A DNA stretch of 64,000 nucleotides from Phyllobates terribilis (Eukaryota), in NCBI RefSeq assembly GCF_046119375.1, contig NW_027362771.1, positions 590,364,001 through 590,428,000 of the forward strand, written 5' to 3'. Both the position numbers and the translations under genes were made by a program. The notes under the pieces are model-generated. The model did no database searches and had not been told where the DNA came from. It was given only the letters and a program-made list of their open reading frames with translations. Of the stretch, positions 7,740 to 61,972 are shown piece after piece (the first letter of the stretch is position 1; every line of letters begins with the position of its first letter).

Positions 7740-9592
7740 TGTATACTCAGCCCCCTCCTACAGTACATCACTCCTCAGCCCCTGTATACAGCCCCCTCCT
7801 ACAGTGCATCACTCCTCAGCCCCTGTATACAGCCCCCTCCTACAGTACATCACTCCTCAGCCCCTGTATACAGCCCACTCCTACAGTACATCACTCCTCA
7901 GCCCCTGTATACAGCCCCCTCCTGCAGTACATCACTCCTCAGCCCCTGTATACAGACCCCTCCTACAGTACATCACTCCTCAGCCCCTGTATATAGCCCC
8001 CTCCTACATTATATCACTCCTCAGCCTCTGTATACAGCCCCCTCCTGCAGTACATGACTCCTCAGCCTCTGTATACAGCCTCCTCCTGCAGTACATCACT
8101 CCTCAGCCTCTGTATACAGCCTCCTCCTGCAGTACATCACTCCTCAGCCTCTGTATGCAGCCCCCTCCTACATTACATCACTCCTCAGCCCCTGTATACT
8201 GCCCCCTCCTACATTATATCACTCCTCAGCCCCTGTATACAGCCCCCTCCTACAGTGCATCACTCCTCAGCCCCTGTATACAGCCCCCTCCTACAGTACA
8301 TTACTCCTCAGCCCCTGTATACAGCCCACTCCTACAGTACATCACTCCTCAGCCTCTGTATACAGCCCCCTCCTGCAGTACATCACTCCTCAGCCCCTGT
8401 ATACAGCCCCCTCCTACAGTACATCACTCCTCAGCCTCTGTATACAGCCCACTCCTACATTACATCACTCCTCAGCCCCTGCATACAGCCCCCTCCTACA
8501 TTATATCACTCCTCAGCCTCTGTATACAGCCCCCTCCTGCAGTACATGACTCCTCAGCCTCTGTATACAGCCTCCTCCTGCAGTACATGACTCCTCAGCC
8601 TCTGTATACAGCCTCCTCCTGCAGTACATCACTCCTCAGCCTCTGTATACAGCCCCCTCCTACATTACATCACTCCTCAGCCTCTGTATACAGCCCCCTC
8701 CTGCAGTACATGACTCCTCAGCCTCTGTATACAGCCTCCTCCTGCAGTACATCACTCCTCAGCCTCTGTATACAGCCTCCTCCTGCAGTACATCACTCCT
8801 CAGCCTCTGTATACAGCCTCCTCCTGCAGTACATCACTCCTCAGCCTCTGTATGCAGCCTCCTCCTGCAGTACATCACTCCTCAGCCTCTGTATACAGCC
8901 TCCTGCTGCAGTACATGACTCCTCAGCCTCTGTATGCTGCCTCCTCCTGCAGTACATCACTCTTCAGCCTCTGTATACAGCCCCCTCCTACAGTACATCA
9001 CTCCTCAGCCTCTGTATACAGCCCCCTCCTGCAGTACATCACTCCTCAACCTCTGTATACAGCCCCCTCCTGCAGTATATCACTCCTTAGTCTCTGTATA
9101 CAGCCCACTCCTACAGTATATCACTCCTCAGCCTCTGTATACAGCCCCCTCCGACAGCACATCACTCCTCAGCCTCTGTATACAGCCCCCTCCTGCAGTA
9201 TATCACTCCTCAGTCTCTGTATGCAGCCCACTCCTACAGTATATCACTCCTCAGTCTCTGTATACAGCCCACTCCTACAGTATATCACTCCTCAGTCTCT
9301 GTATACAGCCCACTCCTACAGTATATCACTTCTCAGTCTCTGTATACAGCCCCCTCCTGCAGTACATCACTCCTCAGCCTCTGTATACAGACCACTCTTA
9401 CAGTACATCACTCCTCAGCCTCTGCATACAGCCCCCTCCTACAGTCCTTCACTCTTCAGTCTCTGTATACAGCCCCCTCCTGCAATTCTTCACTTCTCAG
9501 CCTCTGTATACAACCCCCTCCTGCAGTTCGTCACACCTCAGCCTCTGTATACAGCCCCCTCCTGCAGTTCTTCACTCCTCAGCCTTTGTATA
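7740..9592. repeat. 41-bp minisatellite (CCTCCTACAGTACATCACTCCTCAGCCCCTGTATACAGCCC), left part
   Basis: Unit counted directly. Each unit contains the palindrome CTGTATACAG. Array is interrupted by the LTR element at 9593. Confidence 0.96.
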
Positions 9593-10664
9593 TGTGGCGC
9601 CACTCAACACTACACCACTCTTGTCCTGTAGGGGGTCTAAATGCACCAGGGTGCTGCCCCGTCCCGGGATAGAGGAGATGGGGGGAACCAAAGATAGGGG
9701 GAACCATGTAGTGGGTGAGGGTGGAGGACACACTTTGAGGAAGCACTTATTGATTCATATTTAATCTACGGCCATCTTGGGTTCAAGGTCTTTTGATTGT
9801 GGTCTTCTGTCAGGGTCCAGCAAGAGTCTGCAGCTGGCTGAAGATACACGGTCCTCGTACTCTGGCCTCGAGATGAGGAGCGGGTCAGAGTTAACCACTG
9901 TCTCTACCCGGTCAAGGTCCTGTTCTAAGAAGGCCTTGGAGGGGAGCAGAGGAGATAGGCTCCACAGGCAAAAGGATCCCAGGGGGATAAGGACGGAGCG
10001 GAGTCGCCACCTGTATTCTTTACTCTGGCTTAGTCAGAGGGATTCCTGCTGCAAAAGGGGTGACCGGCCCCCGATATCTGACTGTGTACTTCACGTCACT
10101 GTTGGAAAGGCCCGGTGGCTTAGTGGATCCCAGGGAGGGACACAAGCGGGAAGAGAAGGAGACGGAGAAGGAGAGGAACACACTGACGGGGTCTTGACAG
10201 GTGCTCCTGATCTGCCTAGGAAGTGCTGAACCCCCTTCCCGGTGGCCGCAGTACGCCATGTGTAGCAGACAGAAGCTTTGCGGCTGAAAGTTCATCTAAA
10301 GTGAGTAAAGACCCGGATGACTTCATTCACCGCCTCCGCTTGTTTATTCCTGCGCGGCACTGCACCCACCATACCTCCACACAGTTTCATTAACTACTGC
10401 CCTGAGGCCTACTCCGCCTGTGGGGAGTAGCACCAACCGAGCTGCCCAAAACACCGGCCTCAGAGGACTGTTGCAGCACTGGTGGCCTTCACCAGAACCC
10501 GCAGGTGGCGTAGTCGAGCAAACCACTCATCCTAAAAGAAGCCCATTATTTTCATGTGACAGCCCTGGGCACGGAACGGGTCTAGGCCACGACTGCATCC
10601 CCGCGACCCCTATACTGACCCGGCTCTGAGTAACCCCATTGCTCAGAGGGGGCGAGGCGTCACA
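9593..10664 (+). repeat. 5' LTR (1072 bp; lacks about 100 bp present at the start of the 3' LTR)
   Basis: Colinear with 15855-17027; 14 differences counted in one ~305-bp stretch (about 4-5%). Confidence 0.9.
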
Positions 10665-10667
10665 ACT

Positions 10668-10685
10668 TGGCATAGTCGGCAGGAT
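10668..10685 (+). promoter_or_regulatory. Primer binding site, tRNA-Ser(AGA/IGA) type
   Basis: TGGCATAGTCGGCAGGAT, 3 nt after the LTR; 17/18 match to the recalled vertebrate Ser PBS TGGCGTAGTCGGCAGGAT. Confidence 0.85.
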
Positions 10686-11018
10686 TGCGAGCCCGCAGCA
10701 ACGGAAAAGGATAATCCCCATTGCCGACGGGTACTGTGCGCCTTTTCACGAAAAAGACTGTCGCTACACACTCAATGTGGCGCCCCCCCAAGAAGAACGG
10801 ATGCCATTATGTGCAAAAACAACAGCAATCTAAGACCTCCCATCGTGGGCCTGGCTCCCTAATGGCGCCAAAAGTGCAGACCGCCCCCTCCAGCGGAGAC
10901 AGTCCGCATAGTAGTGTCCGTCAAGACGGATGGGACGTCCCAAGGAGTGCCCGTTAGCCAGCCGCCCTGGAGCCGCCCCAAAAGAAGGAGGAGAAAGAGA
11001 CCGCACCCAGCAGCAAAG

Positions 11019-11432
11019 ATGGAAGCAGCAAAGGAGATGTCCTCCGTCGCAGGCCCACCAGCTGCTACCCCCCTCACTATGGAGGGACTCTACTTGACCG
11101 CGGAGGAGGCCGATTTCCTCCGCGGTGAAATGCAGGAATTGACCCGGAGGGTTGAAGAGACCCAACGACTGGCCACCACAGAATGGAGTAAGGAGGTGCT
11201 GCAAAAGATCCAGGCCCGCCACCAGGGCCCATCGCGCCTGACCAAAGAGGCCCCAGCCCAGACGGAGGAAGCCCCGGAGGCCCCGTGCAGCCAAGGAACG
11301 GGTAAGCCTGAAGCCCCTATCCCGGGCGCGAGACGCACCAAAGCCCTCCTTGATCTCATGTCGGCACCTCTGTCCCCGGGCGCCGTCGTATGGGAGCAGC
11401 TCCTGGCTCCGGAGGCCGAGACCCGAGCCACT
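11019..11432 (+). CDS. N-terminal part (coiled-coil, low complexity) of the LTR element's single ORF, interrupted by CR1
   Basis: MEAAKEMS..LRGEMQELTRRVEETQRL..ETRAT; the frame continues at 14640 once the CR1 and one TSD copy are removed. Frame is open upstream to 10863. Confidence 0.65.
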
Positions 11433-14400
11433 GGAACAATGAGGTGGAATAAGATTCTACAGGTGAACAACTGGCTACGTCGATGGTGCCGTCAACAAGG
11501 ATTTGGATTTCTGGATCACGGAATGAATTACCTATACGATGGACTACTTGCTAGAGATGGGGTGCACCTTACGAAGACTGGAAAACATGTATTTGGAAGT
11601 CGCCTTGCCACACTCATCAGAAGAGCTTTAAACTAGAACAATGTGGGAAGGGAAGCAAAAGGCCAGAAAAAGCCATACAGCTGACAAATACTATTGAGAT
11701 CTCTGCTACTGGAAGTGGAAAGGAAGAACAAAGACAAAACAATTTAAATAATAAAAATATGGGAGGAAGAGAAACCAATCACAAACTAAAATGTTTTTAT
11801 ACAAATGCACAAAGCATGGGCAACAAACAAGGAGAATTGGAACTACTAACGCAGGAAAGGGAATATGATGTTATTGGAATCACTGAAACTTGGTGGGACG
11901 ATACACATGATTGGAATAAAAGGCTAAAAGGATACAACTTATTTGCAAGAAACAGACTTGATAAACGAGGAGGAGGTGTTGCATTGTATGTTAGAAAAGC
12001 GTATATCTGCACAGAGATTGAAGCTTCAGAGACTGGGAGTTCTGTGGAAACTGTTTGGGTAAGAATACAAGGAGAGAACAACGGAAAGGACACCATTGTA
12101 GGCATTTACTACAGGCCACCTGGGCAAGCTGAAGATATGGATGAACTCTTTATGTATCAAATGACCAAGTTCTCCAAAAAATATGACGTAGTGGTCATGG
12201 GAGATTTCAACTATCCAGACATTTGTTGGGAATCTCTCTCAAGTAAAACTAACAGGTCAAGCAAATTCTTATCCTCTCTTGCTGACAACTTTATCTTCCA
12301 AAAGGTAGGGGAGAAAACAAGGGGATCTGCTACTTTGGATCTAATCCTTATAAACAGGGAGGAAATGGTTGAGGAGGTAAAGGTGGCTGGGACCCTAGGA
12401 GGCAGCGATCATGCTATTATAGAATTTTGGATAACTAGAGGAGGAAGACATGTGAAGACTCAAACTTCAAGGTTAGATTTTAGAAAGGCAGATTTTAAGA
12501 GACTCAGAAAGAGAATAGGAGGGATCCAATGGCTGGATGTCCTTAAGGACAAAAATGTCCAGGAAGGATGGGAAATTTTTAAAAATGAGATTCTCAAAGC
12601 ACAATCGTTAACAATCCCAAAAAGTAGGAAGAATGGGAAGCATTTAAGGAAACCAGGATGGATGAACACAGAACTTAAACACATGCTAAAAAGAAAGAAA
12701 GAAATGTTTATTAAATGGAAAGAGGGAGGCATATCTAAAGAAGATTATAATGCAGTCTGCAGATCCTGCAGGGCACGTATCAGGTTAGCTAAAGCTGACA
12801 ATGAATTAAGGCTTGCAAGAGATGTCAAAAGCAATAAAAAAGGATTTTGGGGGTATGTCAAAAGTAAAAGAAAAGTCAAAGATGCTATAGGATTTTTACA
12901 GGATGAAAATGGAGAAATGGTAAGAGAGGATGTTGAGAAGGCCGAACTTTTTAATTCCTATTTTGCATCTGTTTTCTCTCAGAAAGAAAATGTAACATCA
13001 ACTGATCTTCACTGTCCTTTTAAAGGAATAGAGGAATCCAAGTTATCAGTAAACAGAAAGATTGTGAGGGAATATTTAGCTAACATAAATGAGTTCAAGT
13101 CTCCAGGTCCAGATGAATTACACCCCAGAGTACTGAAGGAGATTGTAGAAGAAATTTTAGAACCACTCTCCATAATCTTTGAAAATTCTTGGAGAACAGG
13201 AGAAGTCCCAGAAGACTGGAGAAGAGCAAATGTTGTTCCTATCTTCAAAAAGGGGAAGAAGGTGGACCCAGGGAACTATAGGCCGGTGAGTCTGACTTCT
13301 ATACCAGGAAAGATCTTTGAACAAATTATTAAACAACATGTATGTAAGTACATGGATAAGAATGAAGTGATTAACCAGAGTCAGCATGGGTTTGTAACTA
13401 ACAGGTCATGTCAGACTAACTTAATTTCCTTCTATGACAGAATCACTGACTGGGTGGATCAGGGAAATGCTGTAGATATAGTATATCTTGACTTCAGCAA
13501 AGCATTTGACAAAGTATCTCACATCATCCTTATTGAAAAAATGACCAAGTATGCAATGGACCAGGCAACTGTTAGGTGGATTCATAACTGGCTTAGTGAT
13601 CGGACTCAAAGGGTGGTTGTAAATGGCTTCACATCCAGCTGGATGAATGTCTCAAGTGGGGTACCACAGGGCTCCGTCCTGGGACCTGTATTGTTCAACA
13701 TCTTTATCAATGATTTAGATGAAGGAATTGAGGGTAAACTGATTAAATTTGCTGATGACACAAAGCTAGGAGGGATAGCTAATACTAGAGAAGAGAGAGA
13801 GAGGATTCAAAAAGACCTAAATAAACTGGAGCAGTGGGCAGCAACCAACAGAATGGTTTTTAACAGGGAAAAATGCAAAGTACTACATCTGGGCAATAAA
13901 AATGAAAAAAGCATATACAGAATGGGAGGAATAGCGCTAAGCAACAGTACATGTGAAAAAGACTTAGGTATACTAATAGATCATAGACTGAACATGAGTC
14001 AACAGTGTGATGCAGCAGCAAAAAAGGCAAATACAATTCTGGGATGTATTAACAGAAGCATACAGTCTAGATCACGTGAAGTCATTATCGGTCTTTACTC
14101 CTCTTTGGTCAGACCTCATCTGGAATACTGTGTACAGTTTTGGGCACCACATTTTAAAAAAGACATAGACAAACTGGAGCAAGTTCAGAGAAGAGCGACC
14201 AGAATGGTGACTGGTCTGCAAACCATGTCCTATGAGGAACGGTTGCAGGATTTGGGAATGTTTAGCTTGCAAAAAAGAAGACTGAGAGGAGACTTAATAG
14301 CTGTCTACAAATATGTCAAGGGCTGTCACATTGTAGAAGGATCATCTTTATTCTCATTTGCACAAGGAAAGACTAGAAGCAATGGGATGAAACTAAATGG

Positions 14401-14630
14401 GAGGAGACACAGATTAGATATTAGAAAAAACTTTTTGACAGTTAGGGTGATTAATGAGTGGAACAGGCTGCCACGAGAGGTGGTGAGTTCCCCTTCAATG
14501 GACGTCTTCAAACAGAGGCTGGACAGACATCTGTCTGAGATGATCTAGTGAATCCTGCTTTGAGCAGGGGGTTGGACCAGATGACCCAGGAGGTCCCTTC
14601 CAACTCTACCATTCTATGATTCTATGATTC
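11432..14630 (+). mobile_element. 5'-truncated CR1 LINE (copy 1)
   Basis: Starts inside the ORF1 esterase C-terminus; full ORF2; 3' tail of ATTCTATG repeats; probable TSD GCCACT(G) at 11427 and 14634. Confidence 0.96.
11759..14548 (+). CDS. CR1 ORF2, AP-endonuclease plus reverse transcriptase, 929 aa, uninterrupted
   Basis: EN motifs YTNAQS, GITETWW, GDFN, SDH; RT motifs GVPQGSVLGP and FADD. Confidence 0.97.
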   Translation: MGGRETNHKLKCFYTNAQSMGNKQGELELLTQEREYDVIGITETWWDDTHDWNKRLKGYNLFARNRLDKRGGGVALYVRKAYICTEIEASETGSSVETVWVRIQGENNGKDTIVGIYYRPPGQAEDMDELFMYQMTKFSKKYDVVVMGDFNYPDICWESLSSKTNRSSKFLSSLADNFIFQKVGEKTRGSATLDLILINREEMVEEVKVAGTLGGSDHAIIEFWITRGGRHVKTQTSRLDFRKADFKRLRKRIGGIQWLDVLKDKNVQEGWEIFKNEILKAQSLTIPKSRKNGKHLRKPGWMNTELKHMLKRKKEMFIKWKEGGISKEDYNAVCRSCRARIRLAKADNELRLARDVKSNKKGFWGYVKSKRKVKDAIGFLQDENGEMVREDVEKAELFNSYFASVFSQKENVTSTDLHCPFKGIEESKLSVNRKIVREYLANINEFKSPGPDELHPRVLKEIVEEILEPLSIIFENSWRTGEVPEDWRRANVVPIFKKGKKVDPGNYRPVSLTSIPGKIFEQIIKQHVCKYMDKNEVINQSQHGFVTNRSCQTNLISFYDRITDWVDQGNAVDIVYLDFSKAFDKVSHIILIEKMTKYAMDQATVRWIHNWLSDRTQRVVVNGFTSSWMNVSSGVPQGSVLGPVLFNIFINDLDEGIEGKLIKFADDTKLGGIANTREERERIQKDLNKLEQWAATNRMVFNREKCKVLHLGNKNEKSIYRMGGIALSNSTCEKDLGILIDHRLNMSQQCDAAAKKANTILGCINRSIQSRSREVIIGLYSSLVRPHLEYCVQFWAPHFKKDIDKLEQVQRRATRMVTGLQTMSYEERLQDLGMFSLQKRRLRGDLIAVYKYVKGCHIVEGSSLFSFAQGKTRSNGMKLNGRRHRLDIRKNFLTVRVINEWNRLPREVVSSPSMDVFKQRLDRHLSEMI

Positions 14631-14639
14631 ACTGCCACT

Positions 14640-15326
14640 GTAGGAGACCTGCTATGCCTCCCGACTCCCGATCCGGGGAACCCTGCGCTTACCTGGGTGA
14701 ACACCTGCCCCAACCCGGACTGGGCTACACCAATAGAGAGCACGCAGCAAACCCCGTTACAGCCACTACCCGCGCCACCGGTCGCTTGCCCGGCGGCAGA
14801 AGAGTTTGCCTGGGATAACCGGGGAGGCGACATGATGGGCTTCCCCTGGGAAACCAAGACCGAAGCACGGAGGTGGGAGGAGACTTGTCGCAAAGAACTC
14901 CTCCAGTTCGAGAAAGAGCGGCGGGAGAAGCGGGTCCGCTGTGAGCGTCTGGAGGTGCGCGCCAAGGCTGCCAAGTTACAGGCCTGTCAGGCGGAGGCCA
15001 CCCGTCCAAGCCCCCGGGAAGAAGGCATTATTGTGCGCTTCCACCAGGTGGCAGGATGGGGCTTTATCCGCAGCCCACAGTTTAACCGGGACGTGTTCGT
15101 CAACTGGCGGGACGTCGACCCGCGGCTGGAGCAGGGCCACCCTGGCCGGAACCTCTATCCGGGCGATCTGGTATCTTACACCCGCCACCACGGGGAGCGT
15201 GGGTGGTATGCCCTGGATGTCCACAGGGTGTTCAAGGAGGATGCCCCCACTCACCTACCTATAGAGGACCGATCAGGTTCCATCGGGAAAGATGAGCCAT
15301 TTCCCCGGTGGGGATTCCACTTTTGA
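14640..15326 (+). CDS. C-terminal part of the LTR element ORF: Pro-rich linker, charged helix, cold-shock (OB-fold) domain at about 15021-15230
   Basis: EGIIVRFHQVAGWGFIRSPQFNRDVFVNWRDV..LYPGDLVSYTRHHGERGWYALDV fits the CSD pattern (RNP1 WGFI, RNP2 DVFV, L..GD.V.Y, G..A..V). Confidence 0.8.
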   Translation, partial: VGDLLCLPTPDPGNPALTWVNTCPNPDWATPIESTQQTPLQPLPAPPVACPAAEEFAWDNRGGDMMGFPWETKTEARRWEETCRKELLQFEKERREKRVRCERLEVRAKAAKLQACQAEATRPSPREEGIIVRFHQVAGWGFIRSPQFNRDVFVNWRDVDPRLEQGHPGRNLYPGDLVSYTRHHGERGWYALDVHRVFKEDAPTHLPIEDRSGSIGKDEPFPRWGFHF

Positions 15327-15854
15327 GCAGTCCCAGGAGATGCATCTCCCTTTTGTTTGAACAGTTATTTGTTTGGCAAGTTTTGCTTTTCCCGGATTTA
15401 GTTGAAAGAGACATTTGTCCCTTCGGACGCTAAGCAGTAGACAGACTGACTTTGTATATAGTTTGCACTTATTTAGGTGCTCCCTATTGGTTTTATGCAA
15501 AACCATTTCTACCTCAGACCTCAGAAGCAAAACTTGTCTGGTCGTGGCTCTACTGGAGGTCCAACTCGGGATCTCCATGCCCTGCAGCCACCCCAGGGCC
15601 TACGTTGAGGGTTTTGGGCAGGTCCCTCATGCTGCTGAACTGACACTTTTCTACAATGTTTTCTACTGATCTGTCTACATGCATAATGTCTCTTTGATGT
15701 TTTCTATATTTATACTATATATATATATCATGCAACATTAAAAGTATCCAAACCTCCCATTATTGTTTACAAAAACATTTAAAAATTTGAATGTCTGTAC
15801 CTATTCTTTACTCTATTGCAGCCCGCGGACGTGCTGTGTTTCACCGGGGGGGAA

Positions 15855-17027
15855 TGTGGCGCCCCTGAGTGTTCAGTCGCCACAGGGGTACTGCACCTCA
15901 GATAGAGGTGTGGTATCTCCTCAGCCAGGTAAGGATGGAGCATCTCACAGGACCCCACTTCACCACTCAACACTACACCACTCCTGTCCTGTAGGGGGTC
16001 TAAATGCACCAGGGTGCTGCCCCGACCCGGGATAGAGGAGATGGGGGGAACCAAAGATAGGGGGAACCATGTAGTGGGTGAGGGTGGAGGACACACTTTG
16101 AGGAAGCACTTATTGATTCATATTTAATCTACGGCCATCTTGGGTTCAAGGTCTTTTGATTGTGGTCTTCTGTCAGGGTCCAGCAAGAGTCTGCAGCTGG
16201 CTGAAGATTCACGGTCCTCGTACTCTGGCCTCGAGATGAGGATCAGGTCTGAGTTAACCAGTGTCTCTGCCCGGTCAGGGTCCCGTTCTAAGAAGGCCTT
16301 GGAGGGGAGCAGAGGAGATAGGCTCCACAGGCAAAAGGATCCCAGGGGGATACGGACGAAGCGGAGTCGCCACCTGTATTCTTTATTCTGGCCTAGTCAG
16401 AGGGATTCCTGCTGCAAGAGGGGTGACCGGCCCCCAATATCTGACTGTGTACTTCACGTCACTGTTGGAAAGGCCCGGCGGCTTAGTGGATCCCAGGGAG
16501 GGACACAAGCGGGAAGAGAAGGAGATGGAGAAGGAGAGGAACACACTGACGGGGTCTTGACAGGTGCTCCTGATCTGCCTGGGAAGTGCTGAACCCCCTT
16601 CCCTGTGGCCGCAGTACGCCGTGTGTAGCAGAGAGAAGATTTGCGGCTGAAAGTTCATCTTAAGTGAGTAAAACCCTGGATGACTTCATTCACCGCCTCC
16701 GCTTGTTTATTCCTGCGCGGCACTGCACCCACCATACCTCCACACAGTTTCATTAACTAATGCCCTGAGGCCTACTCCGCCTGTGGGGAGTAGCACCAAC
16801 CGAGCGGCCCAAAACGCCAGCCTCAGAGGACTGTTGCAGCGCTGGTGGCCTTCACCAGAAACCGCAGGTGGCGTAGTCGAGCAAACCACTCATCCTAAAA
16901 GAAGCCCATTATTTTCATGTGACAGCCCTGGGCACGGAACGGGTCTAGGCCACGACTGCATCCCCGCGACCCCTACACTGACCCGGCTCCGAGTAACCCC
17001 ATTGTTCAGGGAGGGCGAGGCGTCACA
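15855..17027 (+). repeat. 3' LTR (1173 bp)
   Basis: Preceded by PPT; starts TGTGGCGC, ends CGTCACA, followed by TSD TATA. Confidence 0.92.
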
Positions 17028-17570
17028 TATACAGCCCCCTCCTGCAGTTCTTCACTCCTCAGCCTCTGTATACAGCCCCATTCTGCAGTACATCACTCCT
17101 TAGCCTTTGTATACAGCCCCCTCTTGCAGTACATCACTCCTAAGCCTCTGTATGCAGCCTCCTCTTGCAGTACATCACTCCTAAGCCTCTGTATGCAGCC
17201 CCCTCTTGCAGTACATCACTCCTCAGCCCCAGTATACAGCCCCCTCCTACAGTACATCACTCCTTACCCCCTGTATACAGCCCCCTCCTACAGTCCTTCA
17301 CTCTTCAGTCTCTGTATACAGCCCCCTCCTACAGTATATCACTCCTCAGCCTCTGTATACAGCCCCCTCCTGCAGTACATCACTCCTCAGCCTCTGTATA
17401 CAGCCCCCTCCTGCAGTACATCACTCCTCAGCTTCTGTATACAGCCCCCTCCTGTAGTACATTACTTTTCAGACCCTGTAAATAGGCCCCTCATGTAGTA
17501 CATCACTTCGGAGCCTCCTGTATGCAGCCCCCTCTTGCAGTACATCTCTTCTCAGCCCCTGTATACAGCC
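17028..17570. repeat. 41-bp minisatellite, right part
   Basis: Same unit resumes in register after the LTR element. Confidence 0.93.
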
Positions 17571-18124: not shown

Positions 18125-18691
18125 GTTAGAAGGTTTCCTTGACAATAAGTTGATCAGAAAGTGTTTCCCCTGCTGAGATCCCCTGCGATCAGCTGTGATC
18201 AGTAAGGTGCAGAAATGCTCTACAAAATCTGCAACATCAAAAAAATCACCAATTAGGTAAATGATGTTATTTACATTTTTTTACATGTTTTTATCGTGTT
18301 TTTGATGCTGCGGTTTTACTCTTTCTTTGGTTTGTCATTTTTTTAAATACAGCTGCTTTGTTTTTGATACTTCCTTGTATTTGGCTTTGACAACATTTTA
18401 TTGATGCAGTCCTGTACGGATTACGTGTGTTTTTTACCTGCAGATTTTCTGCATCTAATGCAGTTTTATAGGAGAAATCTGCACATAAAACTCAGTGTAG
18501 AAAAAGCCCAGTGGGCGCGAGATGTCTATAATTCCCATACACTTTGCTGGAACTGTAAGATGCTGCTTTTTTGATACAGCGTCAAAAACTCCTCGTGGGC
18601 GGCACACAGCCACCGCTAGACAATTCAGATGGTTTTTCCAATTATGATTAAGAGCCCAGGGACTCAGTATTGAAACCTGTAACAGTCAATA

Positions 18692-20342
18692 CAGTTATAT
18701 GAAAAAGTTTGGGCACCCCTATTAATCTTAAGCTTAATGTTTTATAAAAATTGGTGTTTTTGCAACAGCTATTTCAGTTTGATATATGTAATAACTGTTG
18801 GACACAGTAATGTTTCTGCCTTGAAATCAGGTTTATTGTACTAACAGAAAATGTGCAATCTGCATTCAAACAAAATTTGACAGGTGCATAAGTATGGGCA
18901 CCCTTATCATTTTCTTGTTTTAAATACTCCTACCTACTTTTTACTGACTTACTAAAGCACTTTTTTTGGTTTTGTAACCTCATTGAGCTTTGAACTGCAT
19001 AGCCAGGTGTATGCAATCATGAGAAAAGCTACTTAAAGTGGCCACTTGCAAGTTGTTCTCCTGTTTGAATCTCCTCTGAAGAGTGGCATCATGGGCTCCT
19101 CAAAACAACTGTCAAATGATCTGAAAACAAAAGATTATTCAACATAGTTGTTCAGGGGAAGGATACAAAAAGCTGTCTCAGAGATTTAACCTGTCAGTTT
19201 CCACTGTGAGGAACATAGTAAGGAAATGGAAGAACACAGGGACAGTTCTTGTTAAGGCCAGAAGTGGCAGGCCAAGAAAAACATCAGAAAGGCAGAGAAG
19301 AAGAATGGTGAGATCAGTCAAGGACAATCCTCAGACCACCTCCAGAGAGCTGCAGCATCAACTTGCTGCAGATGGTGTCTCTGTGCATCGGTCAACTATA
19401 CAATGCACTTTGCACAAGGAGAAGCTGTATGGGAGAGTGATTCAAAAGAAGCCGTTTCTGCAAGCACGCCACAAACAGAGTCGGCTGAGGTATGCAAAAG
19501 CACATTTGGAGAAGCCAATTTCTTTTTCGAAGAAGGTCCTGTGGACTGATGAAACCAAGATTGAGTTGTTTGGTCATACAAAAAGGCGTTATGCATGGCG
19601 GCAAAAAAACACAGCATTCCAAGAAAAACACTTGCTACCCACAGTAAAATTTGGTGGAGGTTCCATCATGCTTTGGGGCTGTGTGGCCAATGCCGGCACC
19701 GGGAATCTTGTTAAAGTTGAGGGACGCGTGGATTCCACTCAGTATCAGCAGATTCTTGACAATAATGTTCAAGAATCAGTGATAAAGTTGAAGTTACGCA
19801 GGGGATGGATCTTTCAGCAAGACAATGATCCAAAACAACGCTTCAAATCTACTCAGGCATTCATGCAGAGGAACAATTACAATGTTCTGGAATGGCCATC
19901 CCAGTCCCCAGACCTGAATATCATTGAACATCTGTGGGATCATTTGAAGAGGGCTGTCCATGCTCGGCGACCATCAAACTTAACTGAACTGGAATTGTTT
20001 TGTAAAGAGGAATGGTCAAAAATACCTTCATCCAGGATCCAGGAACTCATTAAAAGCTACAGGAAGCGACTAGAGGCTGTTATTTTTGCAAAAGGAGGAT
20101 CTACTAAATATTAATGTCACTTTTCTGGTGAGGTGCCCATACTTATGCACCTGTCAAATTTTGTTTGAATGCAGATTGCACATTTTCTGTTAGTACAATA
20201 AACCTCATTTCAAGGCAGAAACATTACTGTGTCCAACAGTTATTACATATATCAAACTGAAATAGCTGTTGCAAAAACACCATTTTTTATAAAACATTAA
20301 GATTAAGATTAATAGGGGTGCCCAAACTTTTTCATATGACTG
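18692..20342 (+). mobile_element. Tc1-family DNA transposon, 1651 bp, long (~210 bp) TIRs
   Basis: TA TSD at both ends; TIR CAGT(T/C)ATATGAAAAAGTTTGGGCACCCC; transposase inside. Confidence 0.96.
19091..20114 (+). pseudogene. Tc1 DD34E transposase with one +1 frameshift near codon 14
   Basis: MGSSKQLSNDLKTK, then an extra A in an A-run, then IIQHSCSGEGYKK; GRPRK, WTDETK, QQDNDPK-x34-E all present. Confidence 0.88.
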
Positions 20343-20472
20343 TATATAATGCTCCAAAGTTGGAGATCACATTAGTGTTTGATAAGAATGATCAATATGG
20401 TGTATGTGCCTTTAATGTTATGTACTGTCGCTATGACTCAACACTTATCATATTAGCTAAGCTAATAAATAG

Positions 20473-23591: not shown

Positions 23592-24298
23592 GTAAGAGAG
23601 ATATATACGTATCCGGCGGTTCTAGATCCTTCCTCCAATTGGGATGGCACATCCTATATATCCTGCCGGTGAGTGACGTGCCCCCTGGGGCCGTGGGGTA
23701 CTCAGAAGCCGGGCCGGTCGGCTCTATTGGGGTAGTCACGGTGGCGTGACCCAGTCCGTGGCCCAGGGCGGTCAATAAACAAAGAAAAGAGGGGAATAAA
23801 GTTTTGGGGGTAAAGTTTCGTCACGCCACCAATGGTATGCGGCTATAGGTGGCCGCCGCTGTTCAGATCCACTGGGGCCGTTGGTGACTGGGGACCGTTT
23901 GCTAGCTGAGTCTTGCAGTCCTCCACTAGTTTGGGGCCGGTCCCCTACTGCGACCTGATCCTTTCACGGTCAGCGTGAACTCGGGCGCACGGGTGGACTC
24001 CGCACTTCCCGTGCCCCTAAGATTCTTTCTCTGTCTATGAAGTCCTTCTCACTGCTCCGGTCTTCTCTCTCCACACCAGGAGGCGGGTCCCCCTGGCTGA
24101 TGGACAAGTCTATTGATATGGCCGTCGTTGCAAAGAGCGGGCATGGCTCTTCGCACCATTCTGTAGCCCGGCCCACGATGGGAGGCTGCTTAACTTCCTT
24201 GGACATACACATGGCGCTTGTTCTTTCTGGTCGGGCGCCACTACTCAGTCTCAAACACAGTCTCTGGGCGCACGAGACCTGGTGTAATGGGTCGGTAC

Positions 24299-24316
24299 AT
24301 CCTGTTCGTGACGCCA
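24299..24316 (-). promoter_or_regulatory. Primer binding site, tRNA-Ser(CGA) type
   Basis: Minus strand TGGCGTCACGAACAGGAT, 4 nt after the LTR end; complementary to the recalled tRNA-Ser(CGA) 3' end ATCCTGTTCGTGACG-CCA. Confidence 0.8.
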
Positions 24317-24970
24317 AGTTTGACGTGCCCCCTGGGGCCGTGGGGTACTCGGAAGCCGGGCTGGTCGGTTCTATTGGGGTAGTCACGGTGCCGTGACCCG
24401 GTACGTGGCCCAGGGCGGTCAATAAATAAAGAAAAGAGGGGAATAAAGTTTTGGGGGTAAAGTTTCGTGAGTCAACCCGTGATATGCAGCTATAGGTGGC
24501 CGCCGCTGCTGTTCAGATCCACTGGGGCCTTGGTGACGCAGCAGAGATAGTTCAGCTCTCCACGGGTAGAGCTAGGCCCCAGGGCAGTAAAATAGGTAGG
24601 CTTTGATGTTGTTGGTGTAGTGCAAGGCAGGTGACGCAGCAATTAAGTCAAGGACACAGCGGGGTGCAGTCTTCAAGTTGTACTCACAGCTTTCACGGTG
24701 CTCCAGGTTACAACTGCTAGCCATGTTATAACAGCCCACCGAGTCCTGTCTCCTCCGGGGAAGTGATCCAGCCAACTCTCAGATAACTTGATTGCACTTG
24801 ATCGGGACCCCCTTCTTGTGCACCTTCCCGGGTCGTCTCTCTGCGCTGGCTCTCGCCCTCCTGCCCTGTGCCTCACAAACAGTGTCCCGAGCCAGTGGCC
24901 CCGGGCCTTGTCGTGCGACGTCCTCTCTGTCCCCTTGGTCCTATATGACCACTTCTTCAGGGAACGTGTG

Positions 24971-26252
24971 TGTAACATCCCTGGCGGCGTGCTGGCATGG
25001 TTTACCACCTCCCACCATGCAAGACCGCCATCTTACCTATCAGTCCAGGCTGCACACTTTGCTCCAGTATGTGCTGTGTGCATGTCTCTTGTCTGATTGC
25101 TTAGGGCGGCGGCGCTGTTACTGCCTGATTCTTAAACTTACAGTGTGTGCAGTCCTAATGCCTCCCCAGCCTATTGCTGTGAGTCACTGGATACTTAAAC
25201 CCCCTCCACCCAGTAGGAGGTGCCTAAGCAACACTTTCTTTCAGTGTGTTCTGTGCAACTGAGTTGCCAGGTCCTGTCCTGTATCTTGTCTGTTCAGCCA
25301 CCCTGGGGGCTGTATACACAGGCCCGTTACCTGTATCTGTGACTTCTAGTCTGTTTCCGCCACCCTGGGGGCTGAGTTCCCAGGCTCGTTCCTGTATCTT
25401 GTTCCTGGTTCAGTTCATGTCTTATCAGTGTCCTAGCCCGTTACTTGTCTGTCTCCATGTTCGTATCTTCCCTTTTCCTGCAGTGTCTGAACCTGCACGT
25501 AACTCCAACTCGTTGTCTCTGTATTTCTGTTTGTGAGTTTAGTGTCCACTCGCTACTTCATTGTAAGTACCTTGTGTGTATCTGCTCTGCTTGTCTACCG
25601 CACCTGCGGTTTTGCTCTTCTCTGCTTGTCTACCGCACCTGCGGGTTTTGCTCTGCTCTGCTTGTCTACCGCACCTGCGGGTTTTACTCTGCTTTGCTTG
25701 TCTACCCCGCCTGCGGGTTTTGCTCTGCTCTGCTTGTCAACCGCATCTGCGAGTTTTGCTCTGCTCTGCTTGTCTACAGCACCTGCGGGTTTTGCTCTGC
25801 TTTGCTCGTCTACCGCGCCTGCGGCTCTGTTCCTGTATCCCAGTCTGTACTGGTTCCTATCCTGCCTGAGTTCCTACCTGCCAGTATCTACCTGCCTGTA
25901 TACCAGCCGTGCGTGCCAATACCCACCTGTCTGCATACCAGCCGTGCCTGCCAATACCCATCTGTCTGCATACCAGATGTGCCTGCCAGTAGCTACCTGT
26001 CAGTATGCCAGCCTAATCGGCCTGTTCCTGCATTCCCCGGTGGGTCAACAGCTGTGACCGGGGTCTGACCTGGAGTAGCACCTGGTCCCTCTGCTCGGTT
26101 CCTCCCTGGTTCACGGAGTCGACTGAGCCGCCGTGCGACCTTGGTCGGACCGAGTTGATACTTAGTCACGCCCCTCCAGGCACTCCTCGGTTCATGGTCC
26201 AGTGTGATCACTAACCACGCTCACGCCAGTCAGTCGGGGCGTGTGCGCAACA
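24971..26252 (+). mobile_element. Solo LTR (1282 bp), related to the LTRs at 31055 and 34671, nested in the previous element
   Basis: TGTAAC..AACA; perfect 5-bp TSD GTGTG; internal 36-bp tandem repeat. Confidence 0.88.
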
Positions 26253-26997
26253 GTGTGTGATTTTTGGCTACGGCACTTAGAGATACCGCAGCCTCCGGTT
26301 TGCTAGCTGAGTCTTGCAGTCCTCCACTAGTCTGGGGCCAGTCCTCTACTGCGACCTGATACTTTCACAGTCGGCGTGAACTCGGGCACATGGGTGGACT
26401 CCGCACTTCCCATGCCCCTAAGTAAGATCCTTTCTCTGTCTCTGGAGCCCTTCTCACTGCTCCGGTCTTCTCTCTTCACTCCCTGTGACGGACTCCTGTC
26501 ACTGACTGCTCTGACTAACTAACTCTTCGACGGTCCACACTCACTGCGCTCTTGCTCCTAGGATCCTTCTAGATTTTTCTACCTTTCCTTTTATACTACC
26601 TGTCACGTGACCCACGTCACCAACTATCACTCTACGTGGTCCCCTCTACCTTCAGTCCTTCCTTTAGTGCTCCCCTAAACTACTTCCTCCACCCACCTCC
26701 TCTACCTAGTTCCCCCCTCCAGACAGAGACAGGGACTGTGCTCTCCCTCAGGAGCAATCTCGCCCTTCCCTACTGGAGTGATGTGGTGTTGGATGTGAGT
26801 GGTTGGGTCCCAGGTAGTGCTCTCTCCTTACCCGAGAGTGAGGTACCACACCTCTGGCTGAGATGGAGTACCTCTGTGGCGATTAGACCTGCAGCGGCGC
26901 CACATGAGCAGAGGACACCTCTTGTCTTTGCTCCATCCTTGGCTCTATCTCTCTGTCTTCTCACCACTTTTTTGTATATTTTTCCTCACATTTTCAG

Positions 26998-29850: not shown

Positions 29851-31054
29851 TTGCAAATAAACACTTTTATTCTACAACTTCAAAGTTGAAGATTGACATA
29901 AAAACTAATGAACTCCAGCAAATGTTTTCACAAAATGCTTATTATTTTTTTAGATATATTTTAAGTATATTTGAAATTAATATATTTATTATCGTGCTAT
30001 TATTTTTTATGTATATCAATAATTATATTATAAATTGGTTGCATGTTTTTACACATTATCAAGATATTACTCTATCATTTTTGTCATTATTTTTCTCCTT
30101 ATGCACACCTAACAATTGTTCACAAGTTCTGATCAACAATATATTAGAATTTAACGGCGATAAAACATAGAGATTTTTCATTGTAAGTTCCTACATAGTG
30201 TCCTCTCCCACCTAGTTTACTATTAATCCCTGTATAGCATCTTCACCACCCACAATTCATTATAGGTCCCTGTATACAGTGGCATGAAAAAGTTTGGGCA
30301 CCCCTGGTCAAAATTACTGTTATTGAGAACAGTTAAGCAAGTTGAAGATAGAATGATCTCTAAAAGGCCTAAAGTTAAAGATGACACATTTCCTTTGTAT
30401 TTTATTCAAAAAAGTTTGGCTACCCTGTATGGTTAGTACCTAGTAGCGCCCCCTTTTGAAAGTATCACAGCTTGTAAACGCTTTTTGCAGCCAGACAAGA
30501 CTATTCTTGTTTGAGGGATTTTAATCCAATCTTCCTTGGAGAATTTTTCCAGTTCTGTGAGACTCCTGGGTCGTCTTGTATGCTCTGCTATTTTGAGGTC
30601 TAGCCACAGATTTTCATTGATGTTCAGATCAGGGGACTGTGAGGGCCATTGTAAAACCTTCAGCTTGCACCTTTTGAGGTCGTTTATTGTGGATTCTGAT
30701 GTGTGTTTAGGATCATTATCCATTTGTAGAAGCCATCCTCTTTTCAACTTCCGCTTTTTTACAGATGGTGTTATGTTTGCATCAAGAATTTGTTGAAAAA
30801 TCAGTGACTCCATTGTTCCCTCTACCCGTGAAATGTTCCCTGTGCCATTGGCTGCAACACAACCCCAAAACATGATTGATCCACCACCATGCTTAATGGT
30901 TGGCGAGATGTTATTTTTCTGAAATTCTATGCCCTTTTTTCTCCACACATACCTTGATAATTGTGGCCAAAGAGTTAAATTTTTGCCTCATCGGTCCACA
31001 GGCCTTGTTTCCAAAATATATCAGGCTTGTTTAGATGTTCTTTAGAATACTTCT

Positions 31055-32830
31055 TGTAACATACCTGGCGGCGTCCTTGCATAGTGGTCCATCTCCCACT
31101 GTGCAAGAGCGTGCACTTGATCTCCAGTCCAGTCTGCTAGCCTGGCTTCCCTCCATGCTGTCTGCTTGCCTCTGTTTCTGCTGCTTAAGGGTGGCGCCCG
31201 ATCACTTCCTGCTTCTTGTAGCTGCTGCAGGCACACCCCTTGTGCGTCCTCAGCCTATTGCTGTCTGTCACCTGGTATTTAACCCAGCTCCTCCCTGGAA
31301 TCCTTGCCTGAGCATTGTGTTCTGTCAGTTGGCTTCCTGTCATTGATGTGCCAGGTCTTGTCTATGCTTCCTGCCTTGCGGTATCAGTTCCCGTGTCTGC
31401 ACTGTGTCCTGTCTGAACTATCTTCTAGCCTGTTGTCTTCTGCCTATCCTGGAGGCTGTATTTCCAGGCCAGTGTGAACACGCTCCTAGCCTGTTCTTTC
31501 CGCCTTCTAGGGGCCGCATACCTAGACCCGTTCCTGCATCTTGCCTGTTCCTGTCTGAACTCGCTCCTAGCCTTTTTGTTCCGCCTTCTAGGGGACGCAT
31601 ACCTAGACCCACTCCTGTATCTTGCTGCTGTGTCTGTTCTTGTCTGAATACTCTCCTAGCCTGTTACCTGTTTTTCTCTATGTCCGTACCTTCCCTTTTC
31701 CTGCAGAATCTGATCCCGTACCTAACTCCTACTCGTTGTCCCTGTACTCCCGTTTGTGAGTTTAGAGTCCACTCGCTACTTCATTGCAAGTATCCTGTGT
31801 GGACCTGGTTCTGCCTTTCCCTTCCAGTCTGTTCCGTGTGTACAGAGCCCTGTCCCCTCTGCTCTGCCTTGCTCACCGCTCCGGCGGTTCTTGCCTGCTC
31901 TGCCTTGCTCGCTGCTCCGGCAGTCTCGCTCTGCTCTGACCCTTTGCTCGCTGCTGCGGCAGTCTCGCTCTGCTCTGACCCTTTGCTCGCTGCTCCGGCA
32001 GTCTCGCTCTGCTCTGACCCTTTGCTCGCTGCTCCGGCAGTCTCACTCTGCTCTGACCCTTTGCTCGCTGCTCCGGCAGTCTTATTCTGCTCTGACCCTT
32101 TGCTCGCTGCTCCGGCAGTCTCGCTCTGCTCTGACCCTTTGCTTGCTGCTCCGGCAGTCTCGCTCTGCTCTGACCCTTTGCTCGCTGCTCCGGCAGTCTC
32201 GCTCTGCTCTGACCCTTTGCTCGCTGCTCCGGCAGTCTCGCTCTGCTCTGACCCTTTGCTCGCTGCTTCGGCAGTCTCGTCCCGCTCCTCTCTCGCTCAC
32301 CGCTCCAGGCGGCCTTGTCCTGCTCTTCTCTCGCTCACCGCTCCAGGCGGTCTCGTCTTGTTCTGCTCTTGCTCGCCGCTCTGGGCGGCCTCACTCTGCT
32401 GTTTGTCCACCGCATCTGCGGTTCTGTTCCTGAGTCCCAGTCTGTACTGGGTCCTATCCACTCGGTGCTCCAACCTGTCATTCCTGCCAGTACCTCCCTG
32501 CCTGCATACCAGTTGTGCTTACCAGGATCCGCCAGTCTGCATACCAGCCGTGTCTGCCTATACCCAGCAGTCTGTGTGCCAGCCTAACCTGCCTGTTCCT
32601 GTATTCCCCTGTGTGGGTCAACAGCCGTGTCCGGGGTCTGTCCTGGAGTAGCACCTGGTCCCTCTGCTCGGTTCCTCCTTGGTGCACTGGCGTCGTATGC
32701 CGTCGTGCGACCCTGGTCGGATCGGGTGGATACTTAGTTACGCCCCTCCAGGCATTCACTCTCCGGCACGGTCCAGTGGAATCACTACATATACACGCAC
32801 ACGCCACTGAGCCCGGGCGTGTGCATTACA
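31055..32830 (+). repeat. 5' LTR (1776 bp) with nine copies of a 39-bp repeat
   Basis: Unit CTCTGCTCTGACCCTTTGCTCGCTGCTCCGGCAGTCTCG; copies counted from CSDPLL repeats. Confidence 0.9.
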
Positions 32831-32973
32831 GCATGCACAGGCCATGGTTTCTGTTGAGCCCCACGGCCTTCGCTCTCTGAGACCTTTTCCAGCGAATACG
32901 TGCATCTAGAAGAAATTTATTTATTTATTTTTTGCTACTAGCTGAGTTCCAGGCGAATTTCGCACCCGTCCAG

Positions 32974-34914: not shown

Positions 34915-36172
34915 AATCCATGCCTGAGCATTGTGTTCTGTCAGTTGGCTTCCTGTCACTGATGTGCCAGGTCTTGTCTATGCTTCCTGCCTTGCGGTAT
35001 CAGTTCCCATGTCTGAACTGTGTCCTGTCTGAACTATCTTCTAGCCTGTTGTCTTCTGCCTATCCTGGAGGCTGTATTTCCAGGCCAGTGTGAACACGCT
35101 CCTAGCCTGTTCTTTCCCCCTTCTAGGGGCCGCATACCTAGACCCGTTCCTGTATCTTGCCTGTTCCTGTCTGAACTCGCTCCTAGCCTTTTCGTTCCGC
35201 CTTCTAGGGGCCGCATACCTAGACCCGCTCCTGTGTGTACAGAGCCCTGTCCCCTCTGCTCTGCCTTGCTCACCGCTCCGGCGGTTCTTGCCTGCTCTGC
35301 GTTGCTCGCTGCTCCGGCAGTCTCGCTCTGCTCTGACCCTTTGCTCGCTGCTCCGGCAGTCTCGTTCTGCTCTGACCCTTTGCTCGCTGCTCCGGCAGTC
35401 TCGCTCTGCTCTGACCCTTTGCTCGCTGCTGCGGCAGTCTCGCTCTGCTCTGACCCTTTGCTCGCTGCTCCGGCAGTCTCGCTCTGCTCTGACCCTTTGC
35501 TCGCTGCTCTGGCAGTCACTCTCTGCTCTGACCCTTTGCTCGCTGCTCCGGCAGTCTCGCTCTGCTCTGACCCTTTGCTCGCTGCTCTGGTAGTCTCGCT
35601 CTGCTCTGACCCTTTGCTCGCTGCTTCGGCAGTCTCGTCCCGCTCCTCTCTCGCTCACCGCTCCAGGCGGCCTTGTCCTGCTCTTCTCTTGCTCACCGCT
35701 CCAGGCGGTCTCGTCTTGTTCTGCTCTTGCTCGCCGCTCTGGGGGGCCTCACTCTGCTGTTTGTCCACCGCATCTGCGGTTCTGTTCCTGAGTCCCAGTC
35801 TGTACTGGGTCCTATCCACTCGTACCTGCCAGTAACTCCCTGCCTGCATACCAGTCGTGCTTACCAGCATCCGCCAGTCTGCATACCAGCTGTGTCTGCC
35901 AATACCCAGCAGTCTGTGTGCCAGCCTAACCTGCCTGTTCCTGTATTCCCCTGTGTGGGTCAACAGCCGTGTCCGGGGTCTGTCCTGGAGTAGCACCTGG
36001 TCCCTCTGCTCGGTTCCTCCTTGGTGCACTGGCGTCGTATGCCGTCGTGCGACCCTGGTCGGATTGGGTGGATACTTAGATACGCCCCTCCAGGCATTCA
36101 CTCTTCGGCACGGTCCAGTGGAATCACTACATATACACGCACACGCCACTCAGCCCGGGCGTGTGCATTACA
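34671..36172 (+). repeat. 3' LTR (1502 bp) with eight 39-bp repeats; lacks a ~235-bp segment of the 5' LTR
   Basis: Direct comparison with 31055-32830. Confidence 0.9.
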
Positions 36173-45077: not shown

Positions 45078-45199
45078 AACAATGTGGGAAGGGAAGCAAA
45101 AGGCCAGAAAAAGCCATACAGCTGACAAATACTATTGAGATCTCTGCTACTGGAAGTGGAAAGGAAGAACAAAGACAAAACAATTTAAATAATAAAAAT

Positions 45200-55451: not shown

Positions 55452-55453
55452 AA

Positions 55454-55471
55454 TGGCGCCCAACGTGGGGC
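55454..55471 (+). promoter_or_regulatory. Primer binding site, tRNA-Lys1,2 (CUU)
   Basis: TGGCGCCCAACGTGGGGC, the canonical Lys1,2 PBS, 2 nt after the LTR. Confidence 0.95.
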
Positions 55472-61969: not shown

Positions 61970-61972
61970 AAG

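What the first reader, a model, noticed from the sequence alone, without database searches (positions are those of the whole stretch)
9593..17027. Pol-less LTR retroelement whose only protein is a coiled-coil plus cold-shock-domain protein
Seen: removing the CR1 and one GCCACT copy joins 11019-11432 to 14640-15326 in frame (..ETRAT-VGDLLCLP..), giving a stop-free 366-aa ORF ending in a CSD. The element keeps LTRs, PBS, PPT and TSD, and a relative with a homologous 5' internal region lies at 23674-26904. Established: CSDs are ssRNA/ssDNA-binding chaperones (Y-box, Lin28, CspA); retroelement Gag normally uses CCHC knuckles for this. Inference: a non-autonomous family that carries its own OB-fold RNA chaperone, either as a nucleocapsid substitute or as a decoy for host CSD proteins. 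I know of no described vertebrate LTR family like this, but could not search.
Basis: partly seen in the sequence, partly recalled or inferred. Interest (0 to 1): 0.8.

Follow-up and report, generated by a model that had tools for sequence, protein, structure and literature searches.

The report
Hitch-hiking retrotransposon with cold-shock domain
A very abundant jumping gene that lacks its own copying enzymes, and probably borrows them from a related element, keeps a single conserved protein ending in a cold-shock-type nucleic-acid-binding domain most like those of the host's Y-box proteins, a cargo I did not find described for retrotransposons.

Summary
The family is real; the window copy is a broken member. 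Element 9593-17027 has LTRs (96.5% alike), a tRNA-Ser PBS, a PPT and a 4-bp TSD. Uninterrupted copies in G000 read LTR-PBS-one ORF (about 438 aa)-PPT-LTR, with no gag or pol. The C-terminal cold-shock domain is confirmed by Pfam and by a predicted fold. Across family members its best solved matches are YBX1/YBX2, though two of four base-stacking residues are replaced.

A diagnostic 3' motif occurs 22,706 times; 15 of 20 unselected sites carry a stop-free domain. pN/pS over the domain is 0.14-0.28, against a neutral 0.75-0.88. LTR pairs reach 100% identity. A gag(CCHC)-pol Ty3/Gypsy family without the domain shares PBS, leader and LTR ends, and forms chimeras with one subfamily, so it is the likely helper. 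Homologues are labelled from four poison-frog species.

A nucleocapsid substitute is unlikely. Best guess: a captured Y-box domain that favours its own RNA. Expression and binding are not shown; Dfam and Repbase were not checked.

The parts
9589..9592 (.). Left 4-bp target-site duplication (TATA), inside a 41-bp satellite array
9593..10664 (+). 5' LTR (TGT...ACA), about 100 nt shorter than the 3' LTR near its start
   Evidence: 96.5% to the 3' LTR
10668..10685 (+). Primer-binding site; one base off the family form, which is complementary to the 3' end of a tRNA-Ser(TGA) gene in G000
   Evidence: tRNA at L230
10686..10808 (+). Leader; shares blocks with the leader of the gag-pol family (candidate packaging signal, inferred)
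10809..11432 (+). 5' part of the single ORF: basic patch and first predicted helical segment; broken by an in-frame stop at 10860-10862
11433..14630 (+). Young, 5'-truncated CR1 LINE insertion (ORF2 11555-14548, endonuclease + RT); not part of the family
14631..15326 (+). 3' part of the ORF: Pro-rich linker, conserved W-D..G..MGF motif, long helix, cold-shock domain, short tail
14856..15002 (+). Predicted 49-residue charged helix (coiled coil inferred, not shown)
   Evidence: H20-68, pLDDT 83-96 over most of it
15021..15227 (+). Cold-shock domain (five-stranded OB fold)
   Evidence: PF00313, E 9.7e-7; (family profile ranks YBX1/2 first)
15327..15845 (+). Non-coding 3' internal region; its last 80 nt are conserved between subfamilies
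15846..15854 (+). Polypurine tract
15855..17027 (+). 3' LTR
17028..17031 (.). Right 4-bp target-site duplication (TATA)
23674..26904 (-). Distant LTR relative with another Ser-type PBS, about 200 nt of internal sequence, a nested insertion and no cold-shock domain

Best explanation
The element is a broken copy of a large, recently active family of non-autonomous Ty3/Gypsy-type LTR retrotransposons. SHOWN: structure LTR-PBS(Ser)-one ORF-PPT-LTR with 4-bp TSDs; no gag or pol; a C-terminal cold-shock domain under purifying selection; many thousands of copies; a gag(PNMA-like, CCHC)-PR-RT-RH-IN family in the same genome that shares PBS, leader, PPT and LTR ends and lacks the domain. INFERRED (about 0.85): the family is packaged, reverse-transcribed and integrated in trans by such a helper. 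INFERRED (about 0.7): the domain was captured from a host Y-box gene. INFERRED (about 0.45): the protein acts mainly on the RNA that encodes it, as a private Y-box-like mRNP protein that coats, stabilises or escorts that RNA to the helper's particles, so that the element out-competes the helper's own RNA. The helix would multimerise the domain or contact a partner. The protein is an advantage, not a requirement.
For: Structure: (internal region 2.0-2.55 kb; 4-bp TSD in 15 of 15 loci printed, of 19 given, one of them a helper copy). Domain. Y-box likeness: the family profile scores YBX1/2 at 44-47 bits, bacterial Csp up to 38, Lin28 up to 20, CSDE1 14. Family C and the Anomaloglossus protein also rank YBX first (E 5e-7 and 3e-7). 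Selection on copies picked without regard to the protein: pN/pS over the domain 0.28 overall and 0.17 (0.08-0.33) for shared variants in 22 of 29 loci, against a neutral 0.75-0.88; 0.14 (0.07-0.22) in 15 of 20 unselected sites. Helper. Two chimeric elements join subfamily-B LTR and 3' end to 270-330 nt of helper leader at 83-89%, as template switching in a shared particle would give. Motif counts: 22,706 non-autonomous against 5,267 helper-type. Selection on an ORF in a non-autonomous element implies a benefit weighted to the encoding copy (inference). Host YB-1 supports HIV and MLV particle production, probably by stabilising genomic RNA (PMC6040738, passages).
Against: No evidence of transcription, translation or nucleic-acid binding was obtained. 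The positions of YB-1 W65 and H87, two of four stacking residues (PMC7498358, passages), are replaced in all 7 aligned element sequences, so binding may be weaker or different. The window's own subfamily alone ranks bacterial CspA first, weakly (E 0.04; Foldseek E 3e-4 against 1e-3 for YBX), and part of the YBX score comes from a shared loop length. 5 of 20 unselected sites lack the domain, and two of them are 82% alike over 1.5 kb, so domain-less derivatives can apparently spread. The helper shares only 67-72% over 120-200 nt of LTR with subfamily A; chimeras were seen for subfamily B only. Private variants also give 0.51 (0.38-0.73), below neutral, probably because some are inherited from unsampled lineages. 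Codon bootstraps ignore the relatedness of copies.
Confidence: 0.5

Rival explanations
1. Counter-defence or decoy: the protein antagonises host germline control, for example by displacing host Y-box proteins that mask mRNA in oocytes (recalled) or by sequestering silencing factors, and so benefits the whole clade.
For: Y-box likeness with altered stacking residues. Domain-less derivatives and chimeras persist, as free-riders on a shared good would. Gypsy elements are highly expressed in Oophaga ova (PMC6278860, passages).
Against: A freely diffusible benefit should let defective copies spread equally well, yet shared variants show pN/pS 0.17 and 15 of 20 unselected sites keep an intact domain.
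Confidence: 0.22
2. DNA-level regulator: the domain binds single-stranded or unwound DNA in the LTR or cDNA and acts as a transactivator, nuclear-import aid or integration tether.
For: Cold-shock domains bind ssDNA (PMC7498358). A basic patch near residues 55-65 resembles a nuclear localisation signal (motif recalled). Subfamily B has an acidic tail.
Against: LTRs of subfamilies A and B have diverged almost beyond alignment while the domain stays about 50% identical. A transactivator works in trans, which fits the per-copy selection less well.
Confidence: 0.15
3. Nucleocapsid substitute: the protein replaces a CCHC nucleocapsid inside the particle.
For: Cold-shock domains are nucleic-acid chaperones (established knowledge); C-terminal position after helical segments loosely parallels Gag.
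Against: No capsid, PNMA or Gag match (E 0.8 against helper Gag). The helper Gag has its own CCHC. Helper copies with 97-99% LTR pairs carry no cold-shock domain (0 of 7 loci).
Confidence: 0.08
4. Neutral passenger: a captured gene fragment that is copied along and has no function.
For: Only 4 of 22 subfamily-A copies are free of stops and frameshifts; domain-less derivatives exist.
Against: pN/pS is far below the neutral expectation. The domain is the best-conserved part across subfamilies and four species.
Confidence: 0.04

Closest known systems
Xenopus laevis pol-less LTR elements 1a11, xretpos(L) and lambda-olt 2-1 (PMC4585706, passages)
   Same: Frog LTR elements with an ORF and no homology to pol.
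   Different: 1a11 encodes a Gag-like protein. Copy numbers are tens to hundreds, and the authors think the elements immobile. The passages seen mention no cold-shock domain. The family here has many thousands of copies and identical LTR pairs. Sequence homology was not tested.
Ty3/Gypsy elements with captured accessory ORFs or domains: bdelloid ORF3 GDSL/DEDDy (PMC5408684, passages); orchid AlkB demethylase (PMC9289625, listing and abstract start only)
   Same: A host-type RNA-acting domain is fixed in an LTR retrotransposon.
   Different: Those sit in gag-pol elements. Here the captured domain is the only recognisable cargo of a non-autonomous element, and the helper lacks it.
CERV of C. elegans Cer1 (PMC10309623, abstract and outline)
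   Same: A non-Gag, non-Pol retrotransposon protein that handles the element's genomic RNA; a model for how this protein could work.
   Different: CERV comes from a spliced mRNA of a gag-encoding element; no homology was tested or claimed.
Host Y-box proteins YBX1/YBX2 (PDB 1h95, 6ktc, 7f3l)
   Same: Best solved matches of the family profile; same long loop between strands 3 and 4; RNP1 and RNP2 phenylalanines kept.
   Different: Only 20-25% identical to the window's domain; W65 and H87 positions replaced; domain lies at the C-terminus behind a long helix.
PNMA-like-gag Ty3/Gypsy family of G000 (L183-L189)
   Same: PBS, PPT, LTR termini, U5 end, leader blocks, 4-bp TSD.
   Different: About 5.9 kb internal with gag(CCHC)-PR-RT-RH-IN and no cold-shock domain; most of the LTR is not alignable to subfamily A.

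Membership tests
LTR retrotransposon (Ty3/Gypsy type), non-autonomous | Paired TG..CA LTRs with short TSD | tested here: met
   Window; 4-bp TSD in 15 of 15 loci printed, of 19 given
LTR retrotransposon (Ty3/Gypsy type), non-autonomous | tRNA primer-binding site and polypurine tract | tested here: met
   tRNA-Ser(TGA) gene with the matching 3' end at L230, 1 of 6 places examined
LTR retrotransposon (Ty3/Gypsy type), non-autonomous | No pol; autonomous relative sharing cis signals | tested here: met
   Internal region 2.0-2.55 kb; no integrase before the PPT at 20 of 20 unselected sites; helper family with PR-RT-RH-IN order
LTR retrotransposon (Ty3/Gypsy type), non-autonomous | Mobilisation in trans by that helper | not testable with these tools
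   Indirect only: chimeras L155 and L182; subfamily A not tied to a specific helper
Autonomous Ty3/Gypsy or endogenous retrovirus | gag, pol (and env) genes | tested here: not met
   the RT in the window belongs to the inserted CR1
Gag / nucleocapsid | Capsid (PNMA/Retrotrans_gag) domain and CCHC knuckle | tested here: not met
   Pfam finds only CSD above noise in 6 of 6 natural subfamily-A ORFs; no similarity to helper Gag
Cold-shock domain (PF00313) | Profile match over the domain | tested here: met
   29 bits against cut-off 27 for the window domain alone; 19.8-27.8 bits in six full A ORFs, 1 of 6 over cut-off; 4 of 7 relatives over cut-off
Cold-shock domain (PF00313) | Five-stranded OB fold | tested here: met
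   Predicted, not solved: five strands; Foldseek top hits CspA, CRHSP-24, CspB, YBX1/2
Cold-shock domain (PF00313) | RNP1/RNP2 aromatic binding surface (YB-1 W65, F74, F85, H87) | tested here: inconclusive
   F74 position kept in 7 of 7 and F85 in 6 of 7; W65 and H87 positions replaced in 7 of 7; a Tyr near the last strand is invariant
Cold-shock domain (PF00313) | Binds ssRNA/ssDNA | not testable with these tools
   needs a binding assay
Y-box protein family | Highly conserved N-terminal CSD followed by a charged C-terminal domain | tested here: not met
   20-25% identity, C-terminal domain position; a derivative at most
Already curated repeat family (Dfam/Repbase) | Existing entry annotated as CSD-bearing | not testable with these tools
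   No such library is offered

The most novel reading that the evidence does not exclude
A non-autonomous retrotransposon lineage captured the cold-shock domain of a host germline Y-box protein before poison frogs diversified, possibly twice (family C has other LTRs and a long branch), and retooled it into a cis-acting RNA factor or an antagonist of oocyte mRNA masking. This lets the element outnumber its helper about four to one and contributes to the very large genomes of these frogs.
Probability: 0.3. Interest if true: 0.85.

Novelty: new variant of a known kind. Interest (0 to 1): 0.68.

Why it matters
Non-autonomous LTR elements usually keep only cis signals or a Gag remnant. This family keeps a non-Gag protein under clear purifying selection, with a domain most like a host factor that retroviruses borrow for RNA stability and particle production. 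It offers a testable case of a parasite of a parasite carrying its own copy of a host cofactor, in a still-active family (roughly 17,000 copies by a crude extrapolation) in frogs known for recent Ty3-driven genome growth. It also warns that 'CSD domain-containing' and chimeric gene models in these frogs can be transposon-derived, and that cold-shock gene counts there are inflated.

Tried and rejected
1. dN/dS on the first loci (CSD 0.10-0.26) was set aside, because those copies were ranked by protein similarity over the same region. replace it.
2. The top-scoring PNMA family is not the helper: different PBS, and no match to A or B sequence in 30 of 30 loci.
3. Expression: no RNA holder listed. 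Three 'RNA?' contig sets from one study with small shares were laid and cover parts of the ORF with 80-100% matches; this is not evidence either way.
4. Complex prediction on two copies of the helix + domain: no verdict.
5. ESM Atlas: only generic CSD clusters, all under 0.9.
6. Word-based protein searches were nearly blind (1, 4 and 0 hits), so the limit to poison frogs is not established.
7. The tree held no Y-box rows and is mostly unresolved; it does not test origin or monophyly.
8. Snail and tunicate cold-shock papers (PMC11417965, PMC7540406; passages) concern host Csde1 and bacterial transfers, not transposons.
9. The relative at 23674-26904 adds nothing on the domain.
10. Three look-ups of earlier scan findings returned nothing.
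Full report
OBSERVATION. The element runs 9593-17027 inside a 41-bp satellite, flanked by TATA on both sides. Its LTRs (9593-10664 and 15855-17027) are 96.5% alike; the 5' one lacks about 100 nt near its start. A PBS begins at 10668 and a PPT lies at 15846-15854. The family form of the PBS is the complement of the 3' end of a tRNA-Ser(TGA) gene in G000 (L230, 1 of 6 places examined). A 5'-truncated CR1 occupies 11433-14630; its ORF2 is open and it is 99.3% identical to another CR1 in the window. Pfam finds PF00313 at 15021-15227 (E 9.7e-7, 29 bits, cut-off 27). AlphaFold2 gives a 49-residue helix followed by five strands (mean pLDDT 74, pTM 0.45), and Foldseek returns cold-shock domains.

CORRECTIONS. 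No reconstruction is needed, because other copies are uninterrupted. They open at the Met matching 10809 and run 438-445 aa. The window copy has a stop at 10860-10862 in addition to the CR1, so it is broken twice. The relative at 23674-26904 shares only 131 nt of LTR and 39 nt of internal sequence and has no domain.

THE FAMILY. A search of G000 (10.6 Gb) with the helix + domain gave 38,054 first-look candidates; the 150 scored were 85-100% identical. These are not copy numbers. Twenty 10-kb loci, most chosen for long open frames, show the ORF with LTR sequence beside it and no gag or pol. Ten complete subfamily-A copies have LTR pairs of 93-98%. A second subfamily (B), 47% identical over helix + domain, has open frames of 634-816 codons and LTR pairs of 97.8-100% in 14 loci, 88% in one, and no pair found in one, so part of the family is very young. 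A third, distant family (C) has different LTR ends and a diverged domain. An exact 30-nt motif before the PPT occurs 22,706 times (control 0). Of the first 20 such sites on contig C1, taken without regard to the protein, 15 carry a full stop-free domain, 5 none, and none carries integrase. That suggests roughly 17,000 copies, a crude extrapolation from one chromosome end. Outside G000, single-domain matches are labelled Phyllobates terribilis, Ranitomeya variabilis, R. imitator and Anomaloglossus baeobatrachus, as 'uncharacterized' or 'CSD domain-containing' (5 of the 150 listed). Most other rows have several matched stretches; the two I looked up are from a protist transcriptome set. I did not see the DNA around the non-G000 proteins, so their element origin is inferred. 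Absence from other frogs is not shown.

SELECTION. The first estimate was biased by how loci were picked and is set aside. In 22 of 29 subfamily-A loci picked by non-coding 3' DNA, pN/pS over the domain is 0.28 (0.18-0.42), 0.17 (0.08-0.33) for variants shared between copies and 0.51 for private ones. The N-terminal part gives 0.57 and the helix region 0.41. The neutral expectation from the same copies' non-coding changes is 0.75-0.88 for the domain. The 15 unselected B-type domains give 0.14 (0.07-0.22); no separate neutral baseline was computed for them. Only 4 of the 22 A copies are free of stops and frameshifts, as expected when selection acts during copying and decay follows insertion. 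The intervals resample codons and ignore relatedness.

THE HELPER. A PBS search that excluded the known subfamilies (6,729 matches) gave 30 loci, among them nine of a gag-pol family. Seven longer regions show gag with a CCHC knuckle, PR-RT-RH-IN order, LTR pairs of 97-99% in the five where a pair was seen, and no cold-shock domain in 7 of 7. This family shares the PBS, PPT, LTR termini, U5 end and leader blocks with A and B. Two loci are mosaics: B-type LTR and 3' end joined to 270-330 nt of helper leader at 83-89%, which template switching in a shared particle would explain. The helper-type 3' motif occurs 5,267 times. Against this reading, subfamily A shares only 67-72% over short LTR stretches with this helper, so A may use an unsampled relative.

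ORIGIN OF THE DOMAIN. A profile of 7 element domains ranks YBX1/YBX2 first (44-47 bits), then bacterial Csp (up to 38), Lin28 (up to 20) and CSDE1 (14). Family C and one Anomaloglossus protein do the same as single queries. The window's own domain is more derived and weakly prefers CspA. Of the four YB-1 stacking residues (PMC7498358, passages), the two phenylalanine positions are kept (7 and 6 of 7) and W65 and H87 are replaced in all. No tree with Y-box rows could be built.

HOW IT MOST LIKELY WORKS. The element supplies RNA with cis signals, and a gag-pol relative supplies particle and enzymes (inferred, strong). The ORF is not Gag, and the helper already has a zinc knuckle and spreads without the domain, so a nucleocapsid substitute is unlikely. 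Purifying selection on an ORF of a non-autonomous element means that copies with an intact protein are copied more often than their neighbours, which points to action weighted to the encoding RNA (inference). Host YB-1 supports HIV and MLV production, probably by stabilising genomic RNA (PMC6040738, passages). I therefore favour a private Y-box-like factor that coats or escorts its own RNA (about 0.45-0.5). The rivals are an anti-silencing or decoy role (0.22), a DNA-level regulator (0.15), a nucleocapsid substitute (0.08) and a neutral passenger (0.04). Domain-less derivatives (5 of 20 sites; two of them 82% alike) show that the protein is not strictly needed in cis and keep the decoy reading alive. 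Transcription, translation, binding and oligomerisation are not shown.

COMPARISON AND NOVELTY. Pol-less frog LTR elements are known (1a11, xretpos; PMC4585706, passages), and so are Ty3/Gypsy elements with captured domains (PMC5408684, passages; PMC9289625, listing only) or RNA-handling accessory proteins (CERV; PMC10309623, abstract). Six full-text searches, read as listings, showed no paper on a cold-shock domain carried by a retrotransposon. 'Cold shock' occurs 0 times in the main text of three frog repeat papers (PMC11152451, PMC6278860, PMC12822217), an accessory-domain review (PMC6338049) and PMC5408684. The library lacks most subscription papers. Dfam, Repbase and supplementary repeat libraries were not seen and may hold the family, probably without the domain noted. 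Oocyte mRNA masking by frog Y-box proteins is recalled, not read here.

VERDICT. A real, large, selected and recently active non-autonomous LTR family with an unusual cargo; the window holds a doubly broken copy. New variant of a known kind; interest 0.68.

Noticed in passing
L165, L166, L171-L173, L192 (G000:C1): Third cold-shock-bearing LTR family (C) with different LTR ends and the most YBX-like domain; its PBS context resembles a second gag-pol family (L163, L170, L179, L190, L191). It may be a separate capture; its full structure was not resolved.
   Followed up: partly
L155/L214 and L182: Chimeras of helper leader and subfamily-B LTR/3' end that keep only the last strand of the domain.
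   Followed up: yes
L207, L212, L034:8755-9999: Derivatives with the N-terminal ORF open but helix and domain deleted.
   Followed up: partly
L193-L198 (G000:C1, about 734.44 Mb); L199-L200 (C2, about 702.8 Mb): Intronless CSDE1/UNR-like retrocopy next to LINE sequence, and what look like the parent gene's exons (2 of 8 loci read; gene name recalled from the sequence).
   Followed up: partly
P0001, P0003, P0004: Public gene models fuse this element's helix + domain to PF13843, to PF04827/PF13359 and to R3HCC1 sequence; probably annotation artefacts, exonisation not excluded.
   Followed up: no
window 43631-48582: Longer CR1 (ORF1 piece 44172-45077, open 997-aa ORF2 44996-47989), 99.3% identical to the one in the finding, flanked by sequence related to this family's LTR.
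   Followed up: partly
window 56470-61091: Broken retrovirus-like gag-pro-pol in several frames.
   Followed up: no
window 31347-35835: Two blocks with 39-bp arrays about 3.4 kb apart, around a gag-like fragment at 32881-33747; probably another LTR element.
   Followed up: no
window 18678-20356, 30275-36933, 52066-53175, 54079-63764: Tc1/mariner-like transposase frames and terminal inverted repeats, some enclosing nested elements.
   Followed up: no
L042, L089 and many small contigs: Identical copies recur on many unplaced contigs, so they sit in a larger repeated unit or duplicated assembly; this inflates counts somewhat.
   Followed up: no
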